Below are positions 2,077-8,624 of a DNA stretch of 11,672 nt, piece by piece. The stretch is from a virus (taxonomy: Duplodnaviria > Heunggongvirae > Uroviricota > Caudoviricetes). The DNA lies in the IMG/VR virus record IMGVR_UViG_3300042259_000065. One strand, given 5' to 3'. The translations under genes were made by a program, and so were the position numbers. A model generated the notes under the pieces. That model ran no database searches, had not been told where the DNA came from, and worked only from the letters and a program-made list of their open reading frames with translations. Each line of letters opens with the position of its first letter. Positions within the stretch are counted from its first letter, which is position 1.

Positions 2077-2253
2077 CTAAATATACTCTATTTCAACGTA
2101 GGAAGCTCTCAGAGAAGATTTAAACATCTCAGGCATAGATTGTTCATCAAAAATGTAAGCCTTCTCTCTGCTCGTTACAGAGCCATTTAAGGTCCAATAC
2201 ATAATCTGACCAGAGATGTTGACTTTTACGATGAATTTGTCAGTTGTCCTCAT
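2077..2253 (-). CDS. Small hypothetical protein (58 aa), not in the ORF track
   Basis: MRTTDKFIVKVNISGQIMYWTLNGSVTSREKAYIFDEQSMPEMFKSSLRASYVEIEYI*. The ATG overlaps the nrdG end, AAGGAG lies upstream, and the ORF fills the gap and stops 8 nt before the terminator. Confidence 0.6.
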   Translation of the reverse strand: MRTTDKFIVKVNISGQIMYWTLNGSVTSREKAYIFDEQSMPEMFKSSLRASYVEIEYI

Positions 2254-2731
2254 GAACTACCCAATCTCCTTTTATATTTTTCCATATGTGTTGGTTGGTA
2301 CTTCCTCTCCATATTAAAGATGTGTCTCTTAGTGATTGAATATATTTCCCATCAACCAACACATCTATCACATCCAAAATTTGACTACGTAATAAATCAT
2401 TTTGAATTTCTTCAAGAGTATAGCCTGTCCATAGCCAAATATCTTTATTTGGTAAAAGAGTTTTAACTTCTCTAGAGAAAATTAATACTTCTTCTAAGTT
2501 ACTTTTATGTAAAGGGTCTCCACCTGACCAAGTTAATCCTTTTATATAAGGTTGAGATAAGTCTTGTAATATTTGATCTTTGAATTCTCGTGTAATTATA
2601 TTACCAACATTACCCCATGAGTTTTTATTAAAACAACCTTCACATCCGTGTGAACACCTTGACACCCAAATGACACATCTAGCACCAGTCCCATTCTGTG
2701 TATCAAATTTTGAGTAATCTATATATTTCAT
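2240..2731 (-). CDS. nrdG: Anaerobic ribonucleotide reductase activating enzyme (radical SAM)
   Basis: CSHGCEGC (CxxxCxxC), GLTWSGGDPL, DIWLWTGY, DVLVDGKY and WRGSTNQ motifs; 4-nt ATGA overlap with nrdD. Confidence 0.97.
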   Translation of the reverse strand: MKYIDYSKFDTQNGTGARCVIWVSRCSHGCEGCFNKNSWGNVGNIITREFKDQILQDLSQPYIKGLTWSGGDPLHKSNLEEVLIFSREVKTLLPNKDIWLWTGYTLEEIQNDLLRSQILDVIDVLVDGKYIQSLRDTSLIWRGSTNQHIWKNIKGDWVVHEDN

Positions 2732-4815
2732 GCATTCTTAACCCGACACTTCTGCTCATCAAACTTACCTTTATTAGCTGGACGGGCTAAAGCTGAGTGG
2801 GTATACCCAGAGATACGCTTTATACATTCAGCAGTTTCTGGATTATTATTGCCGCACTCTGGACAGAAATAACCATGTTCATCAGCATCAAATTCTCCAC
2901 GATAACCACACTCAAAGCATTTATCTACAGGTTGGTTACAGATTAAGTAGTTGACTTTATCATATGCTGCTTTAACTACAGACTCAAATCCTTCGATATT
3001 ATTTATCATACTAGGCAACTCAATATTATTCACATTGCCACCTGATGCTAATAAATAATAGTCACTTTCTTCATCAAACTTGTCAACAATATTTAAATTT
3101 TTAAACACAGGTTGGTGAAAAGAGTTGGTAATAAAATCTCTGTCAAATTTCCACTCAGGGAACTCAGATTTAAGCTTGTTTGCAATAGTATAACAACCGT
3201 TCTCTAAGGGGCTACCGTATGGACTAAAAGCAATATTTGTCTTTTTAGTATATTCTTCTGTTTTATCTTTTAAAAACTCAATCACCTTCATGCCAAAATG
3301 TTTCGTCATATCATTAAGGATCTCTTGTGCTTCATATAAACCCCCATAGCCAATACTACAAGTTGCGTTACCATTATAGAATAAGTGGTCAATAGTATCT
3401 TCTGCTTTAAGAGTAGCTAATGCTCCATATTGCCATAAGATAGGACTTACTTTAGCTTTAGTTCCTTTCATTCTCTCTATACGAAACATATTTGCTTCAA
3501 AAGCTTTGTCACATAAAAATGACAATTCATCAAAGAACTTATCCTTATCACCATCAGCTTTTAAGGCAGCATAAGGTAATGATACAGTGGTTACGCCAAG
3601 GTTAAATCTACCAGATACTTTCTCTTTACCATCTTCTGTATATTTACCAACAAAACTTCTGCAGCCCATCGCTGTAATTACGTTCTCTGAATTTCCTGTC
3701 ATTTTTCTATTATTGGGCGCCATGACAAAATCAGGGTACATATGTTTTGCGGAACATTCTAAAGCTAGAATAAATTCTTCGTGATTTGGGTCTTCTTTAT
3801 TAAGATTAACACCTTCCTCTACAAAGTAGAGAACTTTAGGAAAAATAGGGCTTCTATGTTCTTTACCAATACCATTTATATGACATTTCAAATATTCTTC
3901 CTTAATCATCTTACAAAGTGGGTCTTGTGATAAAGATAAGCTTATTGTTGTAAATGCAGACTGACCATTAGACGACGTAACCGTTTGAATTTGGTATATA
4001 AATTTCTGACAAGCATCATAAATTTCTTTACGTAAAGATTCCTCTACGTAACTGTCAGGTAGTCCGTATTTCTCTTGTGTTTGTTTAATCTTCTTAAGAC
4101 TTTTCTCAGCATAAGGTTGCAACACTTTATCAAATTCATGCATTGATTGTCCACCATATGAAGATCCTGAAATCTTACTAAATATTTGACAGGCAACATT
4201 AGCTGCGGTTCCAATTGAGTTTGGTTGTTCAATCTCAACATCCCCTAGTTTTACACCATTTGCCAACATATACTCAAAATCATAAACTCCACAATTATGA
4301 ATCCCTTTACTAATAAAGTAATCTTTATCATGTATATGAATTGCACCCTTATCTTCAAGTTCGATAAGATGTTGTGGGTAAGATGTTTTTGCTAAGTGTT
4401 TGCTAACAATACCAGCAATAAGGTCTCTGTGAGTTACAGTTTGATTAGAGTCTTTATTAGAGTTCTCTCTAGAGACATCTTCATTACTACCATTGAGGAA
4501 TTCCTCAATATCATAAAATACTTTATGCTTACCTTCCCTGATACGATCTCGTTCAGCACGATATCTAATATAATGTTTTGCAATATCTTTGTGCTTACTT
4601 ACCATTAACGTATTTTCTACAACATCTTGTATACGTTCTACAGTTAAGTTGTGTTCGTGTGTAAGTTTAAATACTACCTTTGTTGTAATTTGATCTGCAA
4701 TATTGTGTGAATCATAATCAGAATACCCAACACTAGAACACGCTTTCTTTACAGCATTGAAGATTTTATTGGTATTGAAATCTTGTTCGATACCATCACG
4801 TTTAATTACTTTCAA
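2728..4815 (-). CDS. nrdD: Class III (anaerobic) ribonucleoside-triphosphate reductase with N-terminal ATP cone
   Basis: VIKRDG ATP cone, IHIHD, NC and MGCRSF active-site cysteines, CFECG/CPECG Zn site, RISGY glycyl-radical motif; TTG start with SD AAGGAGG. Confidence 0.98.
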   Translation of the reverse strand: MKVIKRDGIEQDFNTNKIFNAVKKACSSVGYSDYDSHNIADQITTKVVFKLTHEHNLTVERIQDVVENTLMVSKHKDIAKHYIRYRAERDRIREGKHKVFYDIEEFLNGSNEDVSRENSNKDSNQTVTHRDLIAGIVSKHLAKTSYPQHLIELEDKGAIHIHDKDYFISKGIHNCGVYDFEYMLANGVKLGDVEIEQPNSIGTAANVACQIFSKISGSSYGGQSMHEFDKVLQPYAEKSLKKIKQTQEKYGLPDSYVEESLRKEIYDACQKFIYQIQTVTSSNGQSAFTTISLSLSQDPLCKMIKEEYLKCHINGIGKEHRSPIFPKVLYFVEEGVNLNKEDPNHEEFILALECSAKHMYPDFVMAPNNRKMTGNSENVITAMGCRSFVGKYTEDGKEKVSGRFNLGVTTVSLPYAALKADGDKDKFFDELSFLCDKAFEANMFRIERMKGTKAKVSPILWQYGALATLKAEDTIDHLFYNGNATCSIGYGGLYEAQEILNDMTKHFGMKVIEFLKDKTEEYTKKTNIAFSPYGSPLENGCYTIANKLKSEFPEWKFDRDFITNSFHQPVFKNLNIVDKFDEESDYYLLASGGNVNNIELPSMINNIEGFESVVKAAYDKVNYLICNQPVDKCFECGYRGEFDADEHGYFCPECGNNNPETAECIKRISGYTHSALARPANKGKFDEQKCRVKNA

Positions 4816-4844
4816 AACACCCTCCTTATTTAGTGTGTATAATT

Positions 4845-4886
4845 ATTATCGCAGGGTTTCAGATGATCAACTTTGATCTATATCAA
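4845..4886 (-). promoter_or_regulatory. FNR box plus extended -10: class II FNR-dependent promoter for nrdDG
   Basis: TTGAT-CTAT-ATCAA at 4873-4886 is a full match to TTGAT-N4-ATCAA. TG-C-GATAAT lies at 4853-4845 (-). With +1 at ~4838 the box centre is at -41.5. Confidence 0.75.
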
Positions 4887-4917
4887 ATATAATAATATTA
4901 CATGAGAGCAATTTTGC

Positions 4918-4944
4918 AAAAGAAAAAAGCCTCCGAAGAAGCTT
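4918..4944 (-). terminator. Intrinsic terminator insulating the nrdD promoter
   Basis: AAGCTTC-TTCG-GAGGCTT hairpin (UUCG loop) followed by TTTTCTTTT on the - strand. Confidence 0.85.
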
Positions 4945-4987
4945 ATGTAGTAATAGTTAAAATAACTCCTGTAATCAATCCTAACAT
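4943..4987 (-). CDS. Possible 14-aa hydrophobic micropeptide MLGLITGVILTITT
   Basis: AGGAG 11 nt before the ATG; the stop abuts the terminator stem. Confidence 0.3.
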   Translation of the reverse strand: MLGLITGVILTITT

Positions 4988-5082
4988 CTTTTAAATATCT
5001 CCTAATACGATTCATCATCTTACAGATTAAAACGTCTTAGAATGCGTCTCAGTTTTAATTTGAGCTATTCTGCTTATCAATA

Positions 5083-5325
5083 CTAACGTTTTAATCCTTT
5101 TCCTACGCAACTTAAATCCCCAAGCCGTGTTTCAATTACCAAACCTTTTGATGCTACACAATTATCACTAAACTCTTTTTCTAATTGAGCCTGTATAGTG
5201 CTACCTATTAAGGCTATAACTATTGTAGCAATAAGTACTCCGAAGAATGCAATATTATACCTATCAATGTAAGCTAAACTTACTGCAAATAAGATAAAAC
5301 CTAAAATTAAAACTAAGTATATCAT
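5083..5325 (-). CDS. Small membrane protein (two predicted TM helices, 80 aa)
   Basis: SD AGGAG; two hydrophobic stretches, then a polar tail with two Cys. Confidence 0.75.
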   Translation of the reverse strand: MIYLVLILGFILFAVSLAYIDRYNIAFFGVLIATIVIALIGSTIQAQLEKEFSDNCVASKGLVIETRLGDLSCVGKGLKR

Positions 5326-5338
5326 AATTATTTCTCCT
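5322..5338 (-). repeat. 17-bp direct repeat copy 1 (AGGAGAAATAATTATGA, RBS plus start codon)
   Basis: Identical to 8274-8290. Confidence 0.85.
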
Positions 5339-5341
5339 GTT

Positions 5342-5406
5342 AAAAAATAAAACCCTGCTTAACATAAGCAATCTTTGTTGATAAGAATCTTAGCTCAAAC
5401 AGGGTT
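5342..5406 (-). terminator. Long-loop terminator after the polymerase gene
   Basis: 12-bp stem AACCCTGTTTGA (5406-5395) / TTAAGCAGGGTT (5362-5351) with two G-U pairs, followed by TTATTTTTT. Confidence 0.55.
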
Positions 5407-5415
5407 GTGTGTCAA
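5387..5415 (-). promoter_or_regulatory. sigma70 promoter for the 80-aa membrane gene
   Basis: TTGACA (5415-5410), 17-nt spacer, TAAGAT (5392-5387). Confidence 0.75.
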
Positions 5416-5418
5416 GGG

Positions 5419-7068
5419 TTATTCTACTTCAACTCTAAAATTAATATCATCACCAAGAACTTTAATATATCCTTTTCTAAAGTAGTCTACAGCTTTGTGG
5501 ATTTTACTTTCAGCAACAGTAATACTATCGTGCAATGGGAGCAAAACAATATTATCATCTAACAACAACCTAGCTGTCTCTACAATAATATCACTGTCAA
5601 TTCTCATAAGTCTTTTTGAAACACCTGTATAGAAATGATGGGATATAGGTTTGTTATGGGATTCAACTTGGTTTATGATTTCTTCAACATCTGCCATAGG
5701 TACTCCAACATAGTCCATACTGTCTTCTTTGCTTGTACCTGCTTTTTGATAATCTTGAATCATTTTGTATCTAAGAGCTTTGATAGCGTCTTGTTTAGAT
5801 TTAGAATTCAACATAACAAGTAATGCAATTTTAGCTACAGACCTTAGAGGATTGTATTTCTCAATATTATAGTATTTACAATACTTATTTATATCCTTAG
5901 TGTCGATAGTGATATTAAGTTTTGGATACGGATCAAAATCATCAGGTAGTATAATACCCTCCTCCCTGTATAATAAGCTAGGATGAAGTGCTTTAATATC
6001 AGCGGTCAAGGTCTTCTCACCATCAATTTTAAGCAATTTTCTCTTTGGTTTTGGTAGTGTAGTCCATTCACCTCTATCAAATAGCCTACCGCATAAGTCG
6101 AAACTTGAATCAATAAATATACGAGAGAAAGATATCCCATCCAAAACAACACCATCAATGTCTATAGTATGTTCACTGATAGTATCATTTAATTTATTCA
6201 TAATATTTTCATTCACTTCAATGAACTCCTCTAAATTATCAAAACAATCTATAGATACGATATTCTTATCTGAATCTCTGACTATAATAGTATTCCTTGG
6301 TTTATTATTTTCTTTGATATAAAGCTCATCTCTGCAAACACTAATCAGGTGAGCAAGTAGTTCTCCTTTAGGTATGAAAAGTGAAGACTCAGAACTTTTA
6401 TCTTTATACTTAAATCCAATAAAGGATACACCCATGCGGTTATACTCTAGCATATCAACCAAGTCCATTAGGTAGTTAAAATTAGGATGCACCATAGATT
6501 CTTTAATATCTCTATCATCTTTAATGGCTTTTGTATATACACCTTTCCACCTATAATACATAAGACCCATATTGGAATTCTTTATCATCCTATGTAAGTG
6601 TTTAGCAAAGAATAAACAAGTGTCTTCTAACGGTTTGCTATGTATACGCGCCTTGTTAACTACATTCTTGTAATAGAACCTTAACATAGAAGACAGGAAC
6701 AAGGCTGTATCAACAATACTGGTACTCTGCAAAGAATCTTTCCTTACAGAGGTATAACATATACACTTCTTAAATTGAGCAATATCCAATAAGAATTTAC
6801 TCATAAGATCCCATCTAGATGAACCATCAATCAAACTATATAAACTATCTATACAATCACTATACTCTACAATAGAAATATCACTATTATCACTATCTAA
6901 AGACTCTATGTAGTGTGTCCTTGTAAGAGAGCTTATAGAGCAAGATAAAAGTTTCTCATCAACATCTTGTAAGTCTTTGGTTTTCTTAGGTAATCTACTA
7001 TAAGGTGTCTTATAAAAAGGTAAATTACTAACCTTTTTCTTTGAAGATTTTTGTACCTTTTTTACCAT
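5419..7068 (-). CDS. Divergent family A DNA polymerase / T7-RNAP-like right-hand nucleotidyltransferase (TV-Pol-like), ~549 aa, no recognisable exonuclease domain
   Basis: GRLF (6090-6079), motif A TADIKALHPSLLY (Asp at 6000-5998), motif B LRSVAKIALLVMLN, motif C LLPLHDSITV (HD at 5532-5527), in the correct order. Start reassigned from TTG 7092 to ATG 7068 because SD GAGGTG lies 6 nt upstream. Confidence 0.7.
   Translation of the reverse strand: MVKKVQKSSKKKVSNLPFYKTPYSRLPKKTKDLQDVDEKLLSCSISSLTRTHYIESLDSDNSDISIVEYSDCIDSLYSLIDGSSRWDLMSKFLLDIAQFKKCICYTSVRKDSLQSTSIVDTALFLSSMLRFYYKNVVNKARIHSKPLEDTCLFFAKHLHRMIKNSNMGLMYYRWKGVYTKAIKDDRDIKESMVHPNFNYLMDLVDMLEYNRMGVSFIGFKYKDKSSESSLFIPKGELLAHLISVCRDELYIKENNKPRNTIIVRDSDKNIVSIDCFDNLEEFIEVNENIMNKLNDTISEHTIDIDGVVLDGISFSRIFIDSSFDLCGRLFDRGEWTTLPKPKRKLLKIDGEKTLTADIKALHPSLLYREEGIILPDDFDPYPKLNITIDTKDINKYCKYYNIEKYNPLRSVAKIALLVMLNSKSKQDAIKALRYKMIQDYQKAGTSKEDSMDYVGVPMADVEEIINQVESHNKPISHHFYTGVSKRLMRIDSDIIVETARLLLDDNIVLLPLHDSITVAESKIHKAVDYFRKGYIKVLGDDINFRVEVE
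6833..6896 (-). repeat. Cluster of short direct repeats (ATAGTGAT x3, ATAGTTT x2) inside the 5' end of the polymerase gene
   Basis: On + strand: ATCACTAT at 6856, 6880 and 6889; AAACTAT at 6833 and 6842. Confidence 0.5.
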
Positions 7069-7204
7069 ATAATTCACCTCTCGTGATTTCAATTTCTTCT
7101 GGATTATTGACTATAAATTCAAAACTGTCCTCTAGTTTAAGCTTATGCTTTCTTACAATATGCATAACAATATCCATAGAATCCTGTTTAAGACTTACTC
7201 TCAT
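7028..7204 (-). CDS. Small protein (58 aa), possible ribbon-helix-helix DNA-binding protein; not in the ORF track
   Basis: MRVSLKQDSMDIVMHIVRKHKLKLEDSFEFIVNNPEEIEITRGELYGKKGTKIFKEKG*. TAATG overlap with the HTH stop, GGAG 8 nt upstream, overlaps the polymerase start by 41 nt. Confidence 0.65.
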   Translation of the reverse strand: MRVSLKQDSMDIVMHIVRKHKLKLEDSFEFIVNNPEEIEITRGELYGKKGTKIFKEKG

Positions 7205-7407
7205 TAATTAATCTCCATATAAATATTAAGGCCTAATGTATGGATTGCTTGTTCGATTCTTTCCACTTTAACACCATCACCATTGTGATTTATGATCTGG
7301 AATAATTGACTTCTTGCCAAACCCGTTACCTGTTGTAAAGTGGAGTAAGACAATTTATTTTCAATCTTATAGTTCTTAAAAGTAGAACAAAGTTTCTCTC
7401 TAATCAT
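7204..7407 (-). CDS. Cro/XRE-like HTH DNA-binding protein (67 aa)
   Basis: KLSYSTLQQVTGLARSQLFQIIN...KVERIEQAIHTLG follows the XRE HTH pattern; SD GAGGT. Confidence 0.8.
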   Translation of the reverse strand: MIREKLCSTFKNYKIENKLSYSTLQQVTGLARSQLFQIINHNGDGVKVERIEQAIHTLGLNIYMEIN

Positions 7408-7490
7408 ATCTACCTCTTAATATCTTGTATCTGAAAACAAGAACACTTGTCAAGAGTGTATACTCTATAACTTAATATCTATCAAGTTTC

Positions 7491-7712
7491 TTAAACCATC
7501 AACATCACAACAACCGTACTCACCACAATGCTTACCCAAAACTCTTTGAAGCAATTCTTATCAGCACGATCCATAATAGATTGAATGTTTTGTCCAAGAA
7601 TCAAAGTTTTGACAAGGGTTTCAATGATTGCAAACATGATGCATACTACTGCACCCATAATCATTGCAGAAGCAAATCCTTCTCCAAAATGTGTTTGAAT
7701 ATATTCGATCAT
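7491..7712 (-). CDS. Small membrane protein (73 aa, two hydrophobic segments)
   Basis: SD AAGGAG; ATGA overlap with the upstream ORF. Confidence 0.7.
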   Translation of the reverse strand: MIEYIQTHFGEGFASAMIMGAVVCIMFAIIETLVKTLILGQNIQSIMDRADKNCFKEFWVSIVVSTVVVMLMV

Positions 7713-7915
7713 GATTCAACTCCTTTCTTCTTACAATTATTCAAATGGCAAATGTAATCATGGAAACCATTAAGCCATTCATTCCACTTATAATCATCTG
7801 ACACAAGATTAGATTCTTGATTTAGGTAATTATACAGATCATTAATACAAAATCCATAACCTTTATGAAGTTTTTCTGCTTCAAGCAACCCTTGCATCCA
7901 AGTTGGTTTATTCAT
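7709..7915 (-). CDS. Hypothetical protein (68 aa; start reassigned to ATG 7915)
   Basis: GGAG 8 nt upstream of ATG 7915, just after the upstream stop; W/Y-rich helical protein. Confidence 0.7.
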   Translation of the reverse strand: MNKPTWMQGLLEAEKLHKGYGFCINDLYNYLNQESNLVSDDYKWNEWLNGFHDYICHLNNCKKKGVES

Positions 7916-7917
7916 GT

Positions 7918-8277
7918 TTAACACTCCACTTTACTAATTGCATGTTCTTTATTCTTAGCAGGAATAGACTCACCTACTTTATCAAATCCACGATTTTCAA
8001 GGTTATCCATCTTCCAAGAATTACCTTTGTATCCAACATAAAATGCAATTGCAAGTTGAATAATGAATGAGGCAATCATAACATCATCGGTATGTTGACC
8101 AAGTTCTTCCATAAAGGAAAGTGCTAACATTGCAAGGATATAACCTCCTGCAAGAAGCCACAGCTTATTCCAAAGGAACCATAGTACTCCAAACAACAGA
8201 CCTGTATAAGAGAAGCCTACTTTGACAGCAACATATTTGTTCAATTTTGTGTGGTGGTAAACATTCCAAATTTTCAT
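7918..8277 (-). CDS. DUF2628-like membrane protein (119 aa)
   Basis: VKVGFSYTGLLFGVLWFLWNKLW ... GYKGNSW...LENRGF pattern recalled for DUF2628; strong RBS. Confidence 0.7.
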   Translation of the reverse strand: MKIWNVYHHTKLNKYVAVKVGFSYTGLLFGVLWFLWNKLWLLAGGYILAMLALSFMEELGQHTDDVMIASFIIQLAIAFYVGYKGNSWKMDNLENRGFDKVGESIPAKNKEHAISKVEC

Positions 8278-8290
8278 AATTATTTCTCCT
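8274..8290 (-). repeat. 17-bp direct repeat copy 2 (AGGAGAAATAATTATGA)
   Basis: Identical to 5322-5338. Confidence 0.85.
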
Positions 8291-8309
8291 TTCGTTTTAA
8301 GTTATCTAA

Positions 8310-8338
8310 ACAATAATACACTATTTTCAACAAGTCAA
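8310..8338 (-). promoter_or_regulatory. sigma70 promoter driving the reverse-strand block
   Basis: TTGACT (8338-8333), 17-nt spacer, TATTGT (8315-8310). Confidence 0.6.
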
Positions 8339-8352
8339 GGACTTTTTTAACC

Positions 8353-8366
8353 TTTTATGTTATAAT
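8353..8366 (+). promoter_or_regulatory. Extended -10 promoter (TTTTATGTTATAAT) for the neck operon, divergent from the reverse block
   Basis: TG-n-TATAAT at 8358-8366, no -35 match, 33 nt before ATG 8400. Confidence 0.65.
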
Positions 8367-8399
8367 AGTTTATGTCAATGAATAATAGGAATTAAGTAT

Positions 8400-8624
8400 A
8401 TGGCAACTTTGAACAAAGATCTAGTACTTTTGACAGCAAAAAGTAAACTTGAGAAAGATGGATTTGAGATCACAGATAAAGATCTTCAAAAGGAAGTCAC
8501 TAAACTTTCAACAAACATGGACTTCTTGGAAGCAGTCAACATTGTTTATGCTAAACTTTCTGCTGGTGTGCAAGAGGAAAAGGTTTATAAGAGTTTCATT
8601 GTAGACTGGTCGAGGAATTGGTAA
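8400..8624 (+). CDS. Hypothetical protein (74 aa), first gene of the neck operon
   Basis: SD AGGA; TAATG coupling to the next gene. Confidence 0.75.
   Translation: MATLNKDLVLLTAKSKLEKDGFEITDKDLQKEVTKLSTNMDFLEAVNIVYAKLSAGVQEEKVYKSFIVDWSRNW

What the first reader, a model, noticed from the sequence alone, without database searches (positions are those of the whole stretch)
5419..7407. Coupled HTH - RHH-like - divergent family A/T7-like polymerase module of unknown function
Seen: three overlapping genes (TAATG overlap, then a 41-nt overlap) followed by a terminator. The largest keeps the palm motifs in order (GRLF, D-x-x-A-L-H-P, R-x-x-x-K, LHD). It has ~300 aa of unrecognised N-terminal sequence and no visible 3'-5' exonuclease. 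Established (from memory): superfamily A polymerases and T7 RNAPs share these motifs, and a divergent phage/transposon branch (TV-Pol) was proposed computationally. Inference: this is not the replicative polymerase. It may be an origin-specific primase/initiator, a dedicated transcriptase or an anti-defence nucleotidyltransferase, recruited or regulated by the two small DNA-binding proteins. This is the best candidate for an undescribed system in the window.
Basis: partly seen in the sequence, partly recalled or inferred. Interest (0 to 1): 0.78.

Follow-up and report, generated by a model that had tools for sequence, protein, structure and literature searches.

The report
Extra mini DNA-polymerase-like gene cassette
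This Vibrio-type phage carries a small three-gene cassette whose large gene encodes a stripped-down relative of DNA polymerase I. The enzyme family has been described computationally (TV-Pol, 2008; divPolA2, 2024) but never tested. It probably helps to start phage DNA replication.

Summary
Three minus-strand genes (67 aa, 58 aa, 549 aa) overlap as described and end at a hairpin plus U-run. The four motifs sit at the stated codons and are invariant in 106 relatives.

[quoted passage not shown] There is no exonuclease. The N-terminal domain (1-250) has no solved counterpart.

The family is not undescribed:
- It is divPolA2 of Yutin et al. 2024 (hhalign 99.94% to their representative AUR84708).
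- It is related to TV-Pol of Iyer et al. 2008 (hhalign 85.6%, all motifs aligned). The N-domain recurs in bacterial TV-Pol-like proteins.

Complete relatives (K406, ICP1) also encode a canonical ~835-900 aa PolA, so this is an accessory enzyme.

The cassette is the homologue of ICP1 gp98-gp99-gp100. It is syntenic in K406, ICP1 and Shewanella phage 1/4, each with a 41-50 nt overlap. In ICP1 it is transcribed by 4 min and lies a few kb from the early theta-origin coverage peak.

Best reading (about 0.4-0.45): an early priming or initiating polymerase for replication. Rivals are an RNA polymerase or a repair DNA polymerase.

Other follow-ups in this scan reported TV-Pol/divPolA2-type genes on other DNA. 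Verdict: new member of a known, biochemically untested kind.

The parts
7408..7490 (-). Upstream control region of the cassette. It holds a TTGACA -35-like hexamer (7448-7453) with a weak -10, bracketed by two exact AGATATTAAG copies (7416-7425, 7471-7480) that are candidate operator sites.
   Evidence: Sequence read. Repeats (2 exact copies in the window; 7 matches with up to 1 mismatch against 2.25 expected). K406 and ICP1 have clearer sigma-70-like promoters at the same place.
7204..7407 (-). 67-aa XRE/Cro-type helix-turn-helix protein, homologue of ICP1 gp98.
   Evidence: phrog_8994 at E 2e-16. Pfam HTH_19 and HTH_37 are weak. Homologues give HTH_37 at E 1e-5 and HTH_26 at E 1e-3. tblastn finds it in 54 phage records, next to the polymerase in every listed record for which the polymerase position was also listed.
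7028..7204 (-). 58-aa small protein, homologue of ICP1 gp99. Its pattern (short strand, then two helices) is compatible with ribbon-helix-helix, but this is unverified. Its last 41 nt overlap the polymerase gene.
   Evidence: phrog_11248 at E 5.5e-5. Alignment with the K406, ICP1 and Shewanella 1/4 homologues is. No RHH profile hit. tblastn gives 71 phage records at E<=1.
6316..7068 (-). Polymerase residues 1-251: the family-specific N-terminal domain. It is helical, with a winged-helix-like unit at about residues 144-233.
   Evidence: AF2 models have pLDDT 92 (whole protein) and 86 (domain alone). The best solved-structure match is only Z 5.5. The same domain heads bacterial 'family A palm domain' proteins and also occurs as stand-alone proteins in AFDB.
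5422..6315 (-). Polymerase residues 252-549: minimal family A-type palm and fingers core without an exonuclease.
   Evidence: VIA-align Z 14.1 (apicoplast Pol), 13.5 (Aquifex Pol I), 12.6 (Klenow), 12.0 (yeast mtRNAP), 11.6 (T7 DNAP) and 10.8 (T7 RNAP); the top 21 rows are all PolA or single-subunit RNAP. Foldseek gives 115 PDB hits at E<=1e-3; the 50 listed are all family A DNAPs.
6085..6090 (-). G327-R328, the beta-hairpin arginine.
   Evidence: R328 is invariant and G327 is at least 90% conserved in 106 sequences. It lies in strand 326-330 of the model and aligns with the G-x-R of the Ma-LMM01 TV-Pol.
5998..6000 (-). D357, the motif A catalytic aspartate. H362 (5983-5985) sits at the steric-gate position (+5).
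   Evidence: Both are invariant. D357 ends strand 351-358. H362 aligns with Glu in AUR84708 and with His in the Ma-LMM01 TV-Pol.
5830..5844 (-). R409-x-x-x-K413, the motif B (O-helix) basic pair.
   Evidence: K413 is invariant and R409 is at least 90% conserved. The pair lies in helix 407-421.
5527..5532 (-). H513-D514, motif C, in the turn between strands 510-512 and 515-519.
   Evidence: Both are invariant. The pair aligns with H-D of the TV-Pol profile.
5340..5406 (-). Terminator-like hairpin (5351-5406) plus U-run (5340-5350). It overlaps a TTGACA...TAAGAT promoter-like site for the next gene.
   Evidence: Fold at -21.1 kcal/mol, z -2.5. The promoter-like site scores 10/12.

Best explanation
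The 549-aa gene encodes an accessory, exonuclease-free minimal family A-type nucleic-acid polymerase of the divPolA2 / TV-Pol kind. It has a family-specific N-terminal domain (helical, with a winged-helix-like unit, probably binding nucleic acid) joined to a palm and fingers core. The core keeps the hairpin Arg, both metal-binding Asp residues and the R-x-x-x-K of the O-helix, so it is most likely catalytically active.

The gene is the last in a self-contained early cassette: own promoter, XRE-type HTH (probable autoregulator), a 58-aa protein translationally overlapped with the polymerase, then a terminator. This is the homologue of ICP1 gp98-gp99-gp100.

Most likely function (inferred, about 0.4-0.45): it starts or primes phage DNA synthesis early in infection, as a primase-polymerase or origin-proximal initiator. 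It would hand over to the T7-like replisome (gp4-like helicase plus canonical PolA) that these phages also encode.

Shown: fold, motif conservation, family membership, synteny of the triad, a separate replicative PolA in relatives, and early transcription in ICP1.

Inferred: catalytic activity, DNA rather than RNA product, the priming role, and any contact with the two small proteins.
For: Fold: AF2 pLDDT 92, pTM 0.89. Residues 252-549 match PolA and ssRNAP at Z 10-14, filling the top 21 rows. Foldseek gives 115 PDB hits at E<=1e-3, and the 50 listed are all PolA.

Motifs: R328, D357, H362, K413, H513 and D514 are invariant in 106 relatives. D357 ends a strand and H513-D514 sits in a beta-turn-beta, as in a palm.

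Family:
- hhalign against the divPolA2 representative AUR84708 gives 99.94%, E 1.2e-36, 363 columns.
- hhalign against the Ma-LMM01 TV-Pol profile gives 85.6%, E 5.5e-6, 174 columns spanning all motifs.
- The N-domain is shared with bacterial 'family A palm' proteins.

Accessory status: K406 and ICP1 each have a separate canonical PolA.

Core gene rather than a drifting insert: the same triad, with a 41-50 nt overlap and its own SD, sits beside the divergent neck/tail genes in the window, K406, ICP1 and Shewanella phage 1/4.

Timing: ICP1 ORF98-100 reads are ~0 before infection. ORF100 has 12.9-33k reads at 4 min and 20-41k at 8 min, then declines. This is as early as the helicase gene and earlier than the PolA gene (PMC7567579 Data Set S1).

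Place: the ICP1 theta-replication coverage peak is 'near the 60 kb position' (PMC7145576). ORF100 is at 58.95-60.6 kb in MH310934, or 56.0-57.7 kb in the CRISPR-deleted reference.

Precedents: TV-Pols were predicted to be primase-polymerases from their helicase, integrase and transposase contexts (PMC2579912). CcPol, which Iyer et al. (2008) included in the TV-Pol group, is a DNA primase when bound to a small partner (PMC7581432).

Other support: a divPolA2-like gene sits in a tRNA-Ser island in which no other replication gene was recognised (three of its proteins have no family match). No Toprim, T7-type zinc-ribbon or AEP primase profile hits were found anywhere in ICP1 or K406. A bulky residue at the steric-gate position (His here, Glu in AUR84708) favours dNTP use (inference).
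Against: - There is no biochemical datum for any divPolA2 or core TV-Pol.
- The authors who named divPolA2 found its neighbourhood variable and favoured a repair DNA polymerase or an RNA polymerase.
- No helicase, integrase or other replication gene adjoins it here. The neighbours are small membrane proteins and nrdDG.
- The ICP1 origin peak is read from a coverage plot. In the deleted reference it lies 2-4 kb from ORF100, so co-location is loose.
- By eye, the N-terminal third of ICP1 gp57 has TOPRIM-like acidic motifs, so the phage may have its own primase.
- No iterons or AT-rich unwinding element were found next to the cassette.
- Fold scores do not separate DNA polymerases from RNA polymerases.
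Confidence: 0.45

Rival explanations
1. It is a DNA-dependent RNA polymerase, a minimal T7/N4-RNAPII-like enzyme. It would either transcribe a class of phage genes or make an origin transcript that primes replication, with the HTH and the 58-aa protein as specificity or recruitment factors.
For: The fold matches yeast mtRNAP at Z 12.0, T7 RNAP at 10.8, N4 vRNAP at 8.1-8.8 and N4 RNAPII at 6.5. Several AFDB relatives are auto-named 'DNA-directed RNA polymerase'. Yutin et al. consider an RNA polymerase possible. The gene is expressed early, before middle and late genes. T7 itself primes its primary origin with its RNAP (established knowledge).
Against: The steric-gate position carries an invariant His here and Glu in the divPolA2 representative, not the Gly of T7-like RNAPs. 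The Tyr of T7 Y639 is Asn421 (the T7 residues are from memory). The N-terminal domain is unrelated to RNAP promoter-binding domains. The only tested enzyme that Iyer et al. placed in the TV-Pol group, CcPol, prefers dNTPs. The cassette and the ICP1 early genes have sigma-70-like promoters.
Confidence: 0.22
2. It is a specialised DNA polymerase for repair, gap filling, translesion synthesis or recombination-dependent replication, not for initiation.
For: It has an active-looking palm without proofreading. It is encoded alongside a regular replicase. This is the first suggestion of Yutin et al. for divPolA2. The neighbourhood varies across the wider family.
Against: Within ICP1-like phages the gene is strictly syntenic and expressed very early, not with recombination genes. 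The large N-terminal domain and the paired small DNA-binding proteins suggest site-specific action. In small islands and phages it appears to be the only replication-type gene (earlier scan notes, not re-tested).
Confidence: 0.18
3. It is a selfish TV-Pol mobile element lodged in the phage genome, or an anti-defence nucleotidyltransferase, with no role in the phage's own replication or transcription.
For: TV-Pols typify transposon-like elements, and one sits next to IS605-type transposases in phage Ma-LMM01. The cassette is self-contained, with its own promoter and terminator. Some phages carry two copies.
Against: There is no integrase, transposase, resolvase or terminal repeat around it. Its position is conserved across phages whose orthologues are only 30-61% identical. 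No PADLOC search was run. Nothing links it to a known anti-defence family.
Confidence: 0.08

Closest known systems
divPolA2 (Yutin et al. 2024, Virol J 21:200, PMC11348598); representative AUR84708 of Vibrio phage 1.063.O (MG592441)
   Same: Homologous over 363 columns (hhalign 99.94%, E 1.2e-36). Same architecture: a unique N-terminal globular domain plus a PolA-like palm and fingers, with no exonuclease. It is encoded in addition to a regular DNA polymerase. It sits at the same place, in the leftward early operon beside the neck/head-closure genes.
   Different: The window's clade is longer (549 aa against 430 aa) and has an extra ~100-residue N-terminal extension. It has invariant His, not Glu, at the steric-gate position, and H-D-S where the representative has F-D-E in motif C. 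It is preceded by the HTH and 58-aa genes, which are absent upstream of AUR84708. The paper (main text; the one stored supplement holds 796 characters) does not mention ICP1, the triad, or any tie between the N-domain and TV-Pol.
TV-Pol family (Iyer, Abhiman and Aravind 2008, Biol Direct 3:39, PMC2579912), e.g. Microcystis phage Ma-LMM01 MAP_030
   Same: Minimal PolA-like core with a beta-hairpin Arg, two Asp residues, R-x-x-x-K and no nuclease. It shares the signatures G-x-R-x-Y..GG-x-Q, D-x-x-K-x-H and H-D (hhalign 85.6%, E 5.5e-6). [quoted passage not shown]
   Different: Sequence similarity is only at profile level. No D5-like helicase, integrase, resolvase or transposase is linked here. 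The gene is a syntenic core gene of large lytic phages, not part of a small mobile element.
CcPol-MP primase of SCCmec and the PolA-SSB primases (PMC7581432; bioRxiv 10.1101/2022.12.02.518924)
   Same: An A-family polymerase core, without working proofreading, is encoded in one operon with a small protein. CcPol is the only enzyme that Iyer et al. placed in the TV-Pol group to have been shown to act as a primase.
   Different: CcPol is close to Pol I and keeps the Pol I sugar-discrimination residues. Its partner MP is an OB-fold protein encoded downstream and followed by a helicase. Here the small gene is upstream, looks helical and has no helicase next to it. Binding was not established.
T7 RNA polymerase and N4 RNAP II (single-subunit RNAPs)
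   Same: Same palm and fingers fold (Z 10.8 and 6.5). T7 RNAP also primes the T7 primary origin for a gp4/gp5 replisome of the type ICP1-like phages encode (PMC7145576).
   Different: No promoter-recognition N-terminal domain or specificity loop was recognised. The residues at the sugar-selection positions differ. No sequence-level similarity was detected.

Membership tests
divPolA2 | Homology to the published representative AUR84708 | tested here: met
   hhalign of A1 against MG592441 25469-26761 gives 99.94%, E 1.2e-36, 363 columns. A direct search gives E 5.9e-11.
divPolA2 | PolA-like palm with motif A, B and C residues; no 3'-5' exonuclease | tested here: met
   Invariant D357, K413 and H513-D514. 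Fold Z 10-14 over residues 252-549 only. No exonuclease hit in Pfam, NCBIfam or PDB.
divPolA2 | N-terminal globular domain without a known counterpart | tested here: met
   The domain model has pLDDT 86, and its best solved match is Z 5.5. The same domain is found only in relatives and in stand-alone AFDB proteins.
divPolA2 | Encoded in addition to a regular DNA polymerase | tested here: inconclusive
   The window's own record is a 39.6-kb fragment (31% complete) with no PF00476 hit. The complete relatives K406 and ICP1 have both genes.
TV-Pol | Beta-hairpin Arg, two palm Asp residues and R-x-x-x-K in the fingers | tested here: met
   R328, D357, D514 and R409/K413 are conserved and placed on the expected secondary-structure elements.
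TV-Pol | Profile similarity to a bona fide TV-Pol | tested here: met
   A1 against the Ma-LMM01 MAP_030 profile gives 85.6% probability, E 5.5e-6, 174 columns through all motifs. The score is moderate and rests on one reference clade of 7 sequences.
TV-Pol | [quoted passage not shown] | tested here: met
   The N-domain model matches residues 39-252 of a 517-aa 'family A palm domain' protein (E 6.8e-4) and several 150-260 aa stand-alone proteins.
TV-Pol | Linkage to a D5-like helicase, or to an integrase, resolvase or transposase in a mobile element | tested here: not met
   The neighbours are an HTH, a 58-aa protein, small membrane proteins and nrdD/nrdG. No repeats bound the cassette.
CcPol-MP / PolA-SSB primase | OB-fold ssDNA-binding partner encoded next to the polymerase and bound to it | tested here: inconclusive
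   A small co-translated gene exists, but its sequence pattern is strand-helix-helix, not beta-rich. Its fold was not modelled.
CcPol-MP / PolA-SSB primase | Helicase gene in the same operon | tested here: not met
   There is no helicase in the cassette or its flanks.
T7-like single-subunit RNA polymerase | Palm and fingers fold | tested here: met
   Z 12.0 (yeast mtRNAP) and 10.8 (T7 RNAP).
T7-like single-subunit RNA polymerase | Small residue at the steric-gate position and Tyr639-type rNTP selection; promoter-binding N-terminal domain | tested here: not met
   His362 and Asn421 occupy these positions (register; T7 residues from memory). The N-domain has no RNAP match.
Canonical family A DNA polymerase (Pfam PF00476) | Match to the DNA_pol_A profile | tested here: not met
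   No Pfam hit at E<=0.1. hhalign against the ICP1 canonical PolA gives 0.2%.
Ribbon-helix-helix (58-aa protein) | RHH profile match or RHH fold | tested here: inconclusive
   No RHH family at E<=0.5 for it or four homologues. The conserved M-x-R-x-x-L-S / MD-x-VM-x-IVRK pattern is compatible with RHH.

The most novel reading that the evidence does not exclude
The gp98-gp99-gp100-type cassette is the origin-specific initiator of theta replication in ICP1-like phages. The winged-helix-bearing divPolA2, helped by the co-translated 58-aa protein, would bind near its own gene and lay down the first primer de novo. It would then hand over to a T7-like replisome whose helicase lacks the zinc-ribbon needed for template-directed priming. 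That would make a family A polymerase the working primase or initiator of a lytic phage.
Probability: 0.3. Interest if true: 0.75.

Novelty: new member of a known kind. Interest (0 to 1): 0.5.

Why it matters
divPolA2/TV-Pol enzymes form a very large family: 3,124 cluster representatives at E<=1e-3. They occur in phages, islands and virophage-like elements, yet none of the core members has been assayed.

This finding ties the family to ICP1 gp100. ICP1 is a genetically tractable model phage for which replication time courses, RNA-seq and engineering tools exist and whose theta origin and initiator are unknown.

That makes two open questions directly testable:
- What do these minimal polymerases do?
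- How does a T7-like replisome start without a T7-like RNA polymerase?

Tried and rejected
- Complex prediction of the polymerase with the 58-aa protein returned 'no answer'. It is neither support nor evidence against binding.
- Sequence searches of the 549-aa protein against Pfam, NCBIfam and PDB, as a single sequence and as a profile, found nothing.
- hhalign against the ICP1 canonical PolA found nothing.
Linkage rests on the phage records inspected.
- The N-terminal domain gave only weak matches. Winged-helix proteins score Z 4.2-5.5. Atlas rows naming IncFII_repA, DnaD_N, RP-C and HTH_36 have TM 0.27-0.34. These are leads only, below the level where a fold assignment is safe.
- Programmed frameshift fusing the 58-aa ORF to the polymerase was considered because of an A-run in the overlap. 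It was set aside: each orthologue has its own strong SD and ATG, and the A-run is not conserved in length.
- The 'phage lacks any primase' argument was weakened by TOPRIM-like motifs seen by eye in ICP1 gp57.
- No iterons or unusual repeats suggesting an origin were found in 4800-8500.
- Literature searches for ICP1 gp98/gp99/gp100 found nothing. No finer ICP1 origin coordinate was found.
Full report
**Observation.** The minus strand carries three tightly packed genes: 7204-7407 (67 aa), 7028-7204 (58 aa) and 5419-7068 (549 aa). The first two share one base in TAATG. The last two overlap by 41 nt, and the polymerase ATG is preceded by GAGAGGTG. A 56-nt hairpin (-21.1 kcal/mol, z -2.5) followed by UUUAUUUUUU lies just after the stop. 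The codon coordinates given for D357 and H513-D514 are exact.

**Is it a polymerase?** Pfam, NCBIfam and PDB sequence searches are blank. PHROGs files the protein under phrog_4756, unknown function. An exhaustive HMMER scan finds 3,124 cluster representatives at E<=1e-3, and the conserved part is residues ~285-549. In 106 of them, G218, R328, R343, D357, H362, K413, H513 and D514 never change.

AlphaFold2 on that alignment gives pLDDT 92 and pTM 0.89. Foldseek returns 115 solved chains at E<=1e-3, and the 50 listed are all family A DNA polymerases. An aligner independent of Foldseek puts residues ~252-549 on several enzymes:
- apicoplast Pol, Z 14.1
- Aquifex Pol I, Z 13.5
- Klenow, Z 12.6
- Pol nu, Z 12.6
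- yeast mitochondrial RNAP, Z 12.0
- T7 DNAP, Z 11.6
- T7 RNAP, Z 10.8

The top 21 rows are all of this superfamily. D357 ends a beta-strand and H513-D514 sits in a beta-turn-beta, which is the palm arrangement. I could not read model coordinates, so the Asp-Asp distance itself was not measured.

**Which family?** A lead from earlier notes of this scan pointed to Yutin et al. 2024, and I checked it. That paper defines divPolA2 as a diverged PolA with an active palm, no exonuclease and a unique N-terminal domain, encoded beside a regular polymerase. Its representative is AUR84708 of Vibrio phage 1.063.O. The window's family profile aligns to that very protein at 99.94% probability (E 1.2e-36, 363 columns). 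BFVD also returns a barbavirus 'DNA polymerase' at E 6e-22.

Independently, I located the TV-Pol of Microcystis phage Ma-LMM01. It is MAP_030, next to IS605-type transposases, as in Iyer et al. 2008. A profile of it and six homologues aligns to the window's family at 85.6% (E 5.5e-6, 174 columns). The alignment runs through the hairpin G-x-R..GG-x-Q, D-x-x-K-x-H, the motif B Lys, L-Q-x-x-D/E and H-D.

The N-terminal domain, folded alone (pLDDT 86), has no convincing solved counterpart (best Z 5.5, winged-helix-like for residues ~144-250). It does recur at the head of 470-520-aa bacterial proteins auto-named 'family A palm domain-containing' or 'DNA-directed RNA polymerase', and as stand-alone 150-260-aa proteins. 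This fits the N-terminal domain that Iyer et al. described for a TV-Pol subset. So the enzyme is a member of a family described twice by computation.

**Context.** The window is part of a 39.6-kb fragment of a Vibrio-type phage. The nearest complete relatives are K406 (61% identity for this protein) and, more distantly, ICP1 (30%). Both encode a separate canonical PolA of ~835-900 aa, so this is an accessory enzyme.

The cassette is ICP1 gp98 (annotated transcriptional regulator), gp99 and gp100. The same HTH, small-ORF and polymerase order recurs in K406, ICP1 and Shewanella phage 1/4, always beside the divergently transcribed neck/tail genes. Each has a 41-50 nt overlap and its own Shine-Dalgarno. 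tblastn finds the polymerase in 116 phage records, the 58-aa protein in 71 and the HTH in 54. They lie next to one another in every listed record for which both positions were listed.

Outside this group the small ORFs are not homologous or are absent. HTH assignment rests on sub-threshold but consistent Pfam hits. The RHH idea for the 58-aa protein fits its conserved pattern but has no profile support.

**Function.** Nothing here measures activity. Several points favour an early role in starting DNA synthesis:
- ICP1 RNA-seq counts show ORF98-100 already high at 4 min and peaking at about 8 min. This matches the helicase gene and precedes the PolA gene (PMC7567579 Data Set S1).
- ICP1's early bidirectional replication peaks 'near the 60 kb position' (PMC7145576). 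ORF100 is at 58.95-60.6 kb in the wild-type record and 56.0-57.7 kb in the CRISPR-deleted reference. It is therefore within a few kb, but not demonstrably on the peak.
- ICP1's replisome is T7-like, with PolA plus a gp4-type helicase, and the ICP1 papers read here describe no phage-encoded RNA polymerase.
- No Toprim, T7-type zinc-ribbon or AEP primase profile scores anywhere in ICP1 or K406. However, gp57's N-terminal third shows TOPRIM-like acidic motifs by eye and no Cys4 ribbon.
- TV-Pols were predicted to be primase-polymerases from context. CcPol, which Iyer et al. included in the TV-Pol group, is a dNTP-using primase once bound to a small partner.
- A divPolA2-like gene lies in a tRNA-Ser island in which no other replication gene was recognised.

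Several points count against this reading. The authors of divPolA2 found variable neighbourhoods and suggested repair or RNA synthesis. No helicase or origin-like repeats flank the cassette. Fold scores do not separate DNA from RNA polymerases. The invariant His at the steric-gate position (Glu in AUR84708) argues mildly for dNTPs.

**Verdict.** The polymerase is a new, longer clade of a known but untested family. Three things go beyond the published descriptions, and all three are computational or circumstantial:
- the conserved HTH, small-protein and polymerase cassette;
- its identity with ICP1 gp98-100, together with early expression and origin proximity;
- the tie between the divPolA2 N-domain and TV-Pol-type bacterial proteins.

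I put replication priming or initiation at about 0.4-0.45, RNA polymerase at about 0.2, repair-type DNA polymerase at about 0.2, and other roles at about 0.1.

Noticed in passing
L003 3620-6415 (also L004 3658-6453): A 931-aa protein fuses a reverse-transcriptase domain (RVT_1, residues 148-284) to a divPolA2-like core (residues 617-912). It sits inside a row of polysaccharide-biosynthesis genes in a metagenomic bacterial contig.
   Followed up: partly
L007 5783-12249: A divPolA2-like 488-aa gene lies in an island inserted after recA-recX-alaS-lysC-csrA-tRNA-Ser(GCT). It is accompanied by a 653-aa HNH/homing-endonuclease-like protein (weak CapR-homology hit) and a Cro-like regulator. No integrase or helicase was recognised.
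   Followed up: partly
window 7416-7425 and 7471-7480 (-): Two exact copies of AGATATTAAG, 55 nt apart, bracket the TTGACA of the HTH gene's promoter region. They are the only exact copies in the window and are a candidate operator for autoregulation. They are not seen at the same place in K406 or ICP1.
   Followed up: partly
window 5322-5338 and 8274-8290: An exact 17-nt repeat TCATAATTATTTCTCCT forms identical ribosome-binding and start regions for the 80-aa (5083-5325) and 119-aa DUF2628 (7918-8277) membrane-protein ORFs on the minus strand.
   Followed up: no
L019 2438-4486 (ICP1_2001_A gp57): The T7 gp4-like helicase of ICP1 has a 330-aa N-terminal region with no Pfam Toprim or zinc-ribbon hit and no Cys4 motif. 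By eye it carries TOPRIM-like LEAEED, LDNDH and KDARD motifs. It may be a primase domain lacking the zinc-binding module.
   Followed up: partly
L022 3470-4762 (AUR84708) versus window 5983-5985 and 5527-5532: The published divPolA2 representative has Glu at the steric-gate position and F-D-E in motif C. The window's clade has invariant His362 and H-D-S. The family may therefore be split in sugar selectivity or metal-site geometry.
   Followed up: no
window 2240-4815 (-): Complete nrdD (695 aa; ATP-cone, NRDD, glycine radical) and nrdG (163 aa) genes lie directly downstream of the cassette on the same strand.
   Followed up: no
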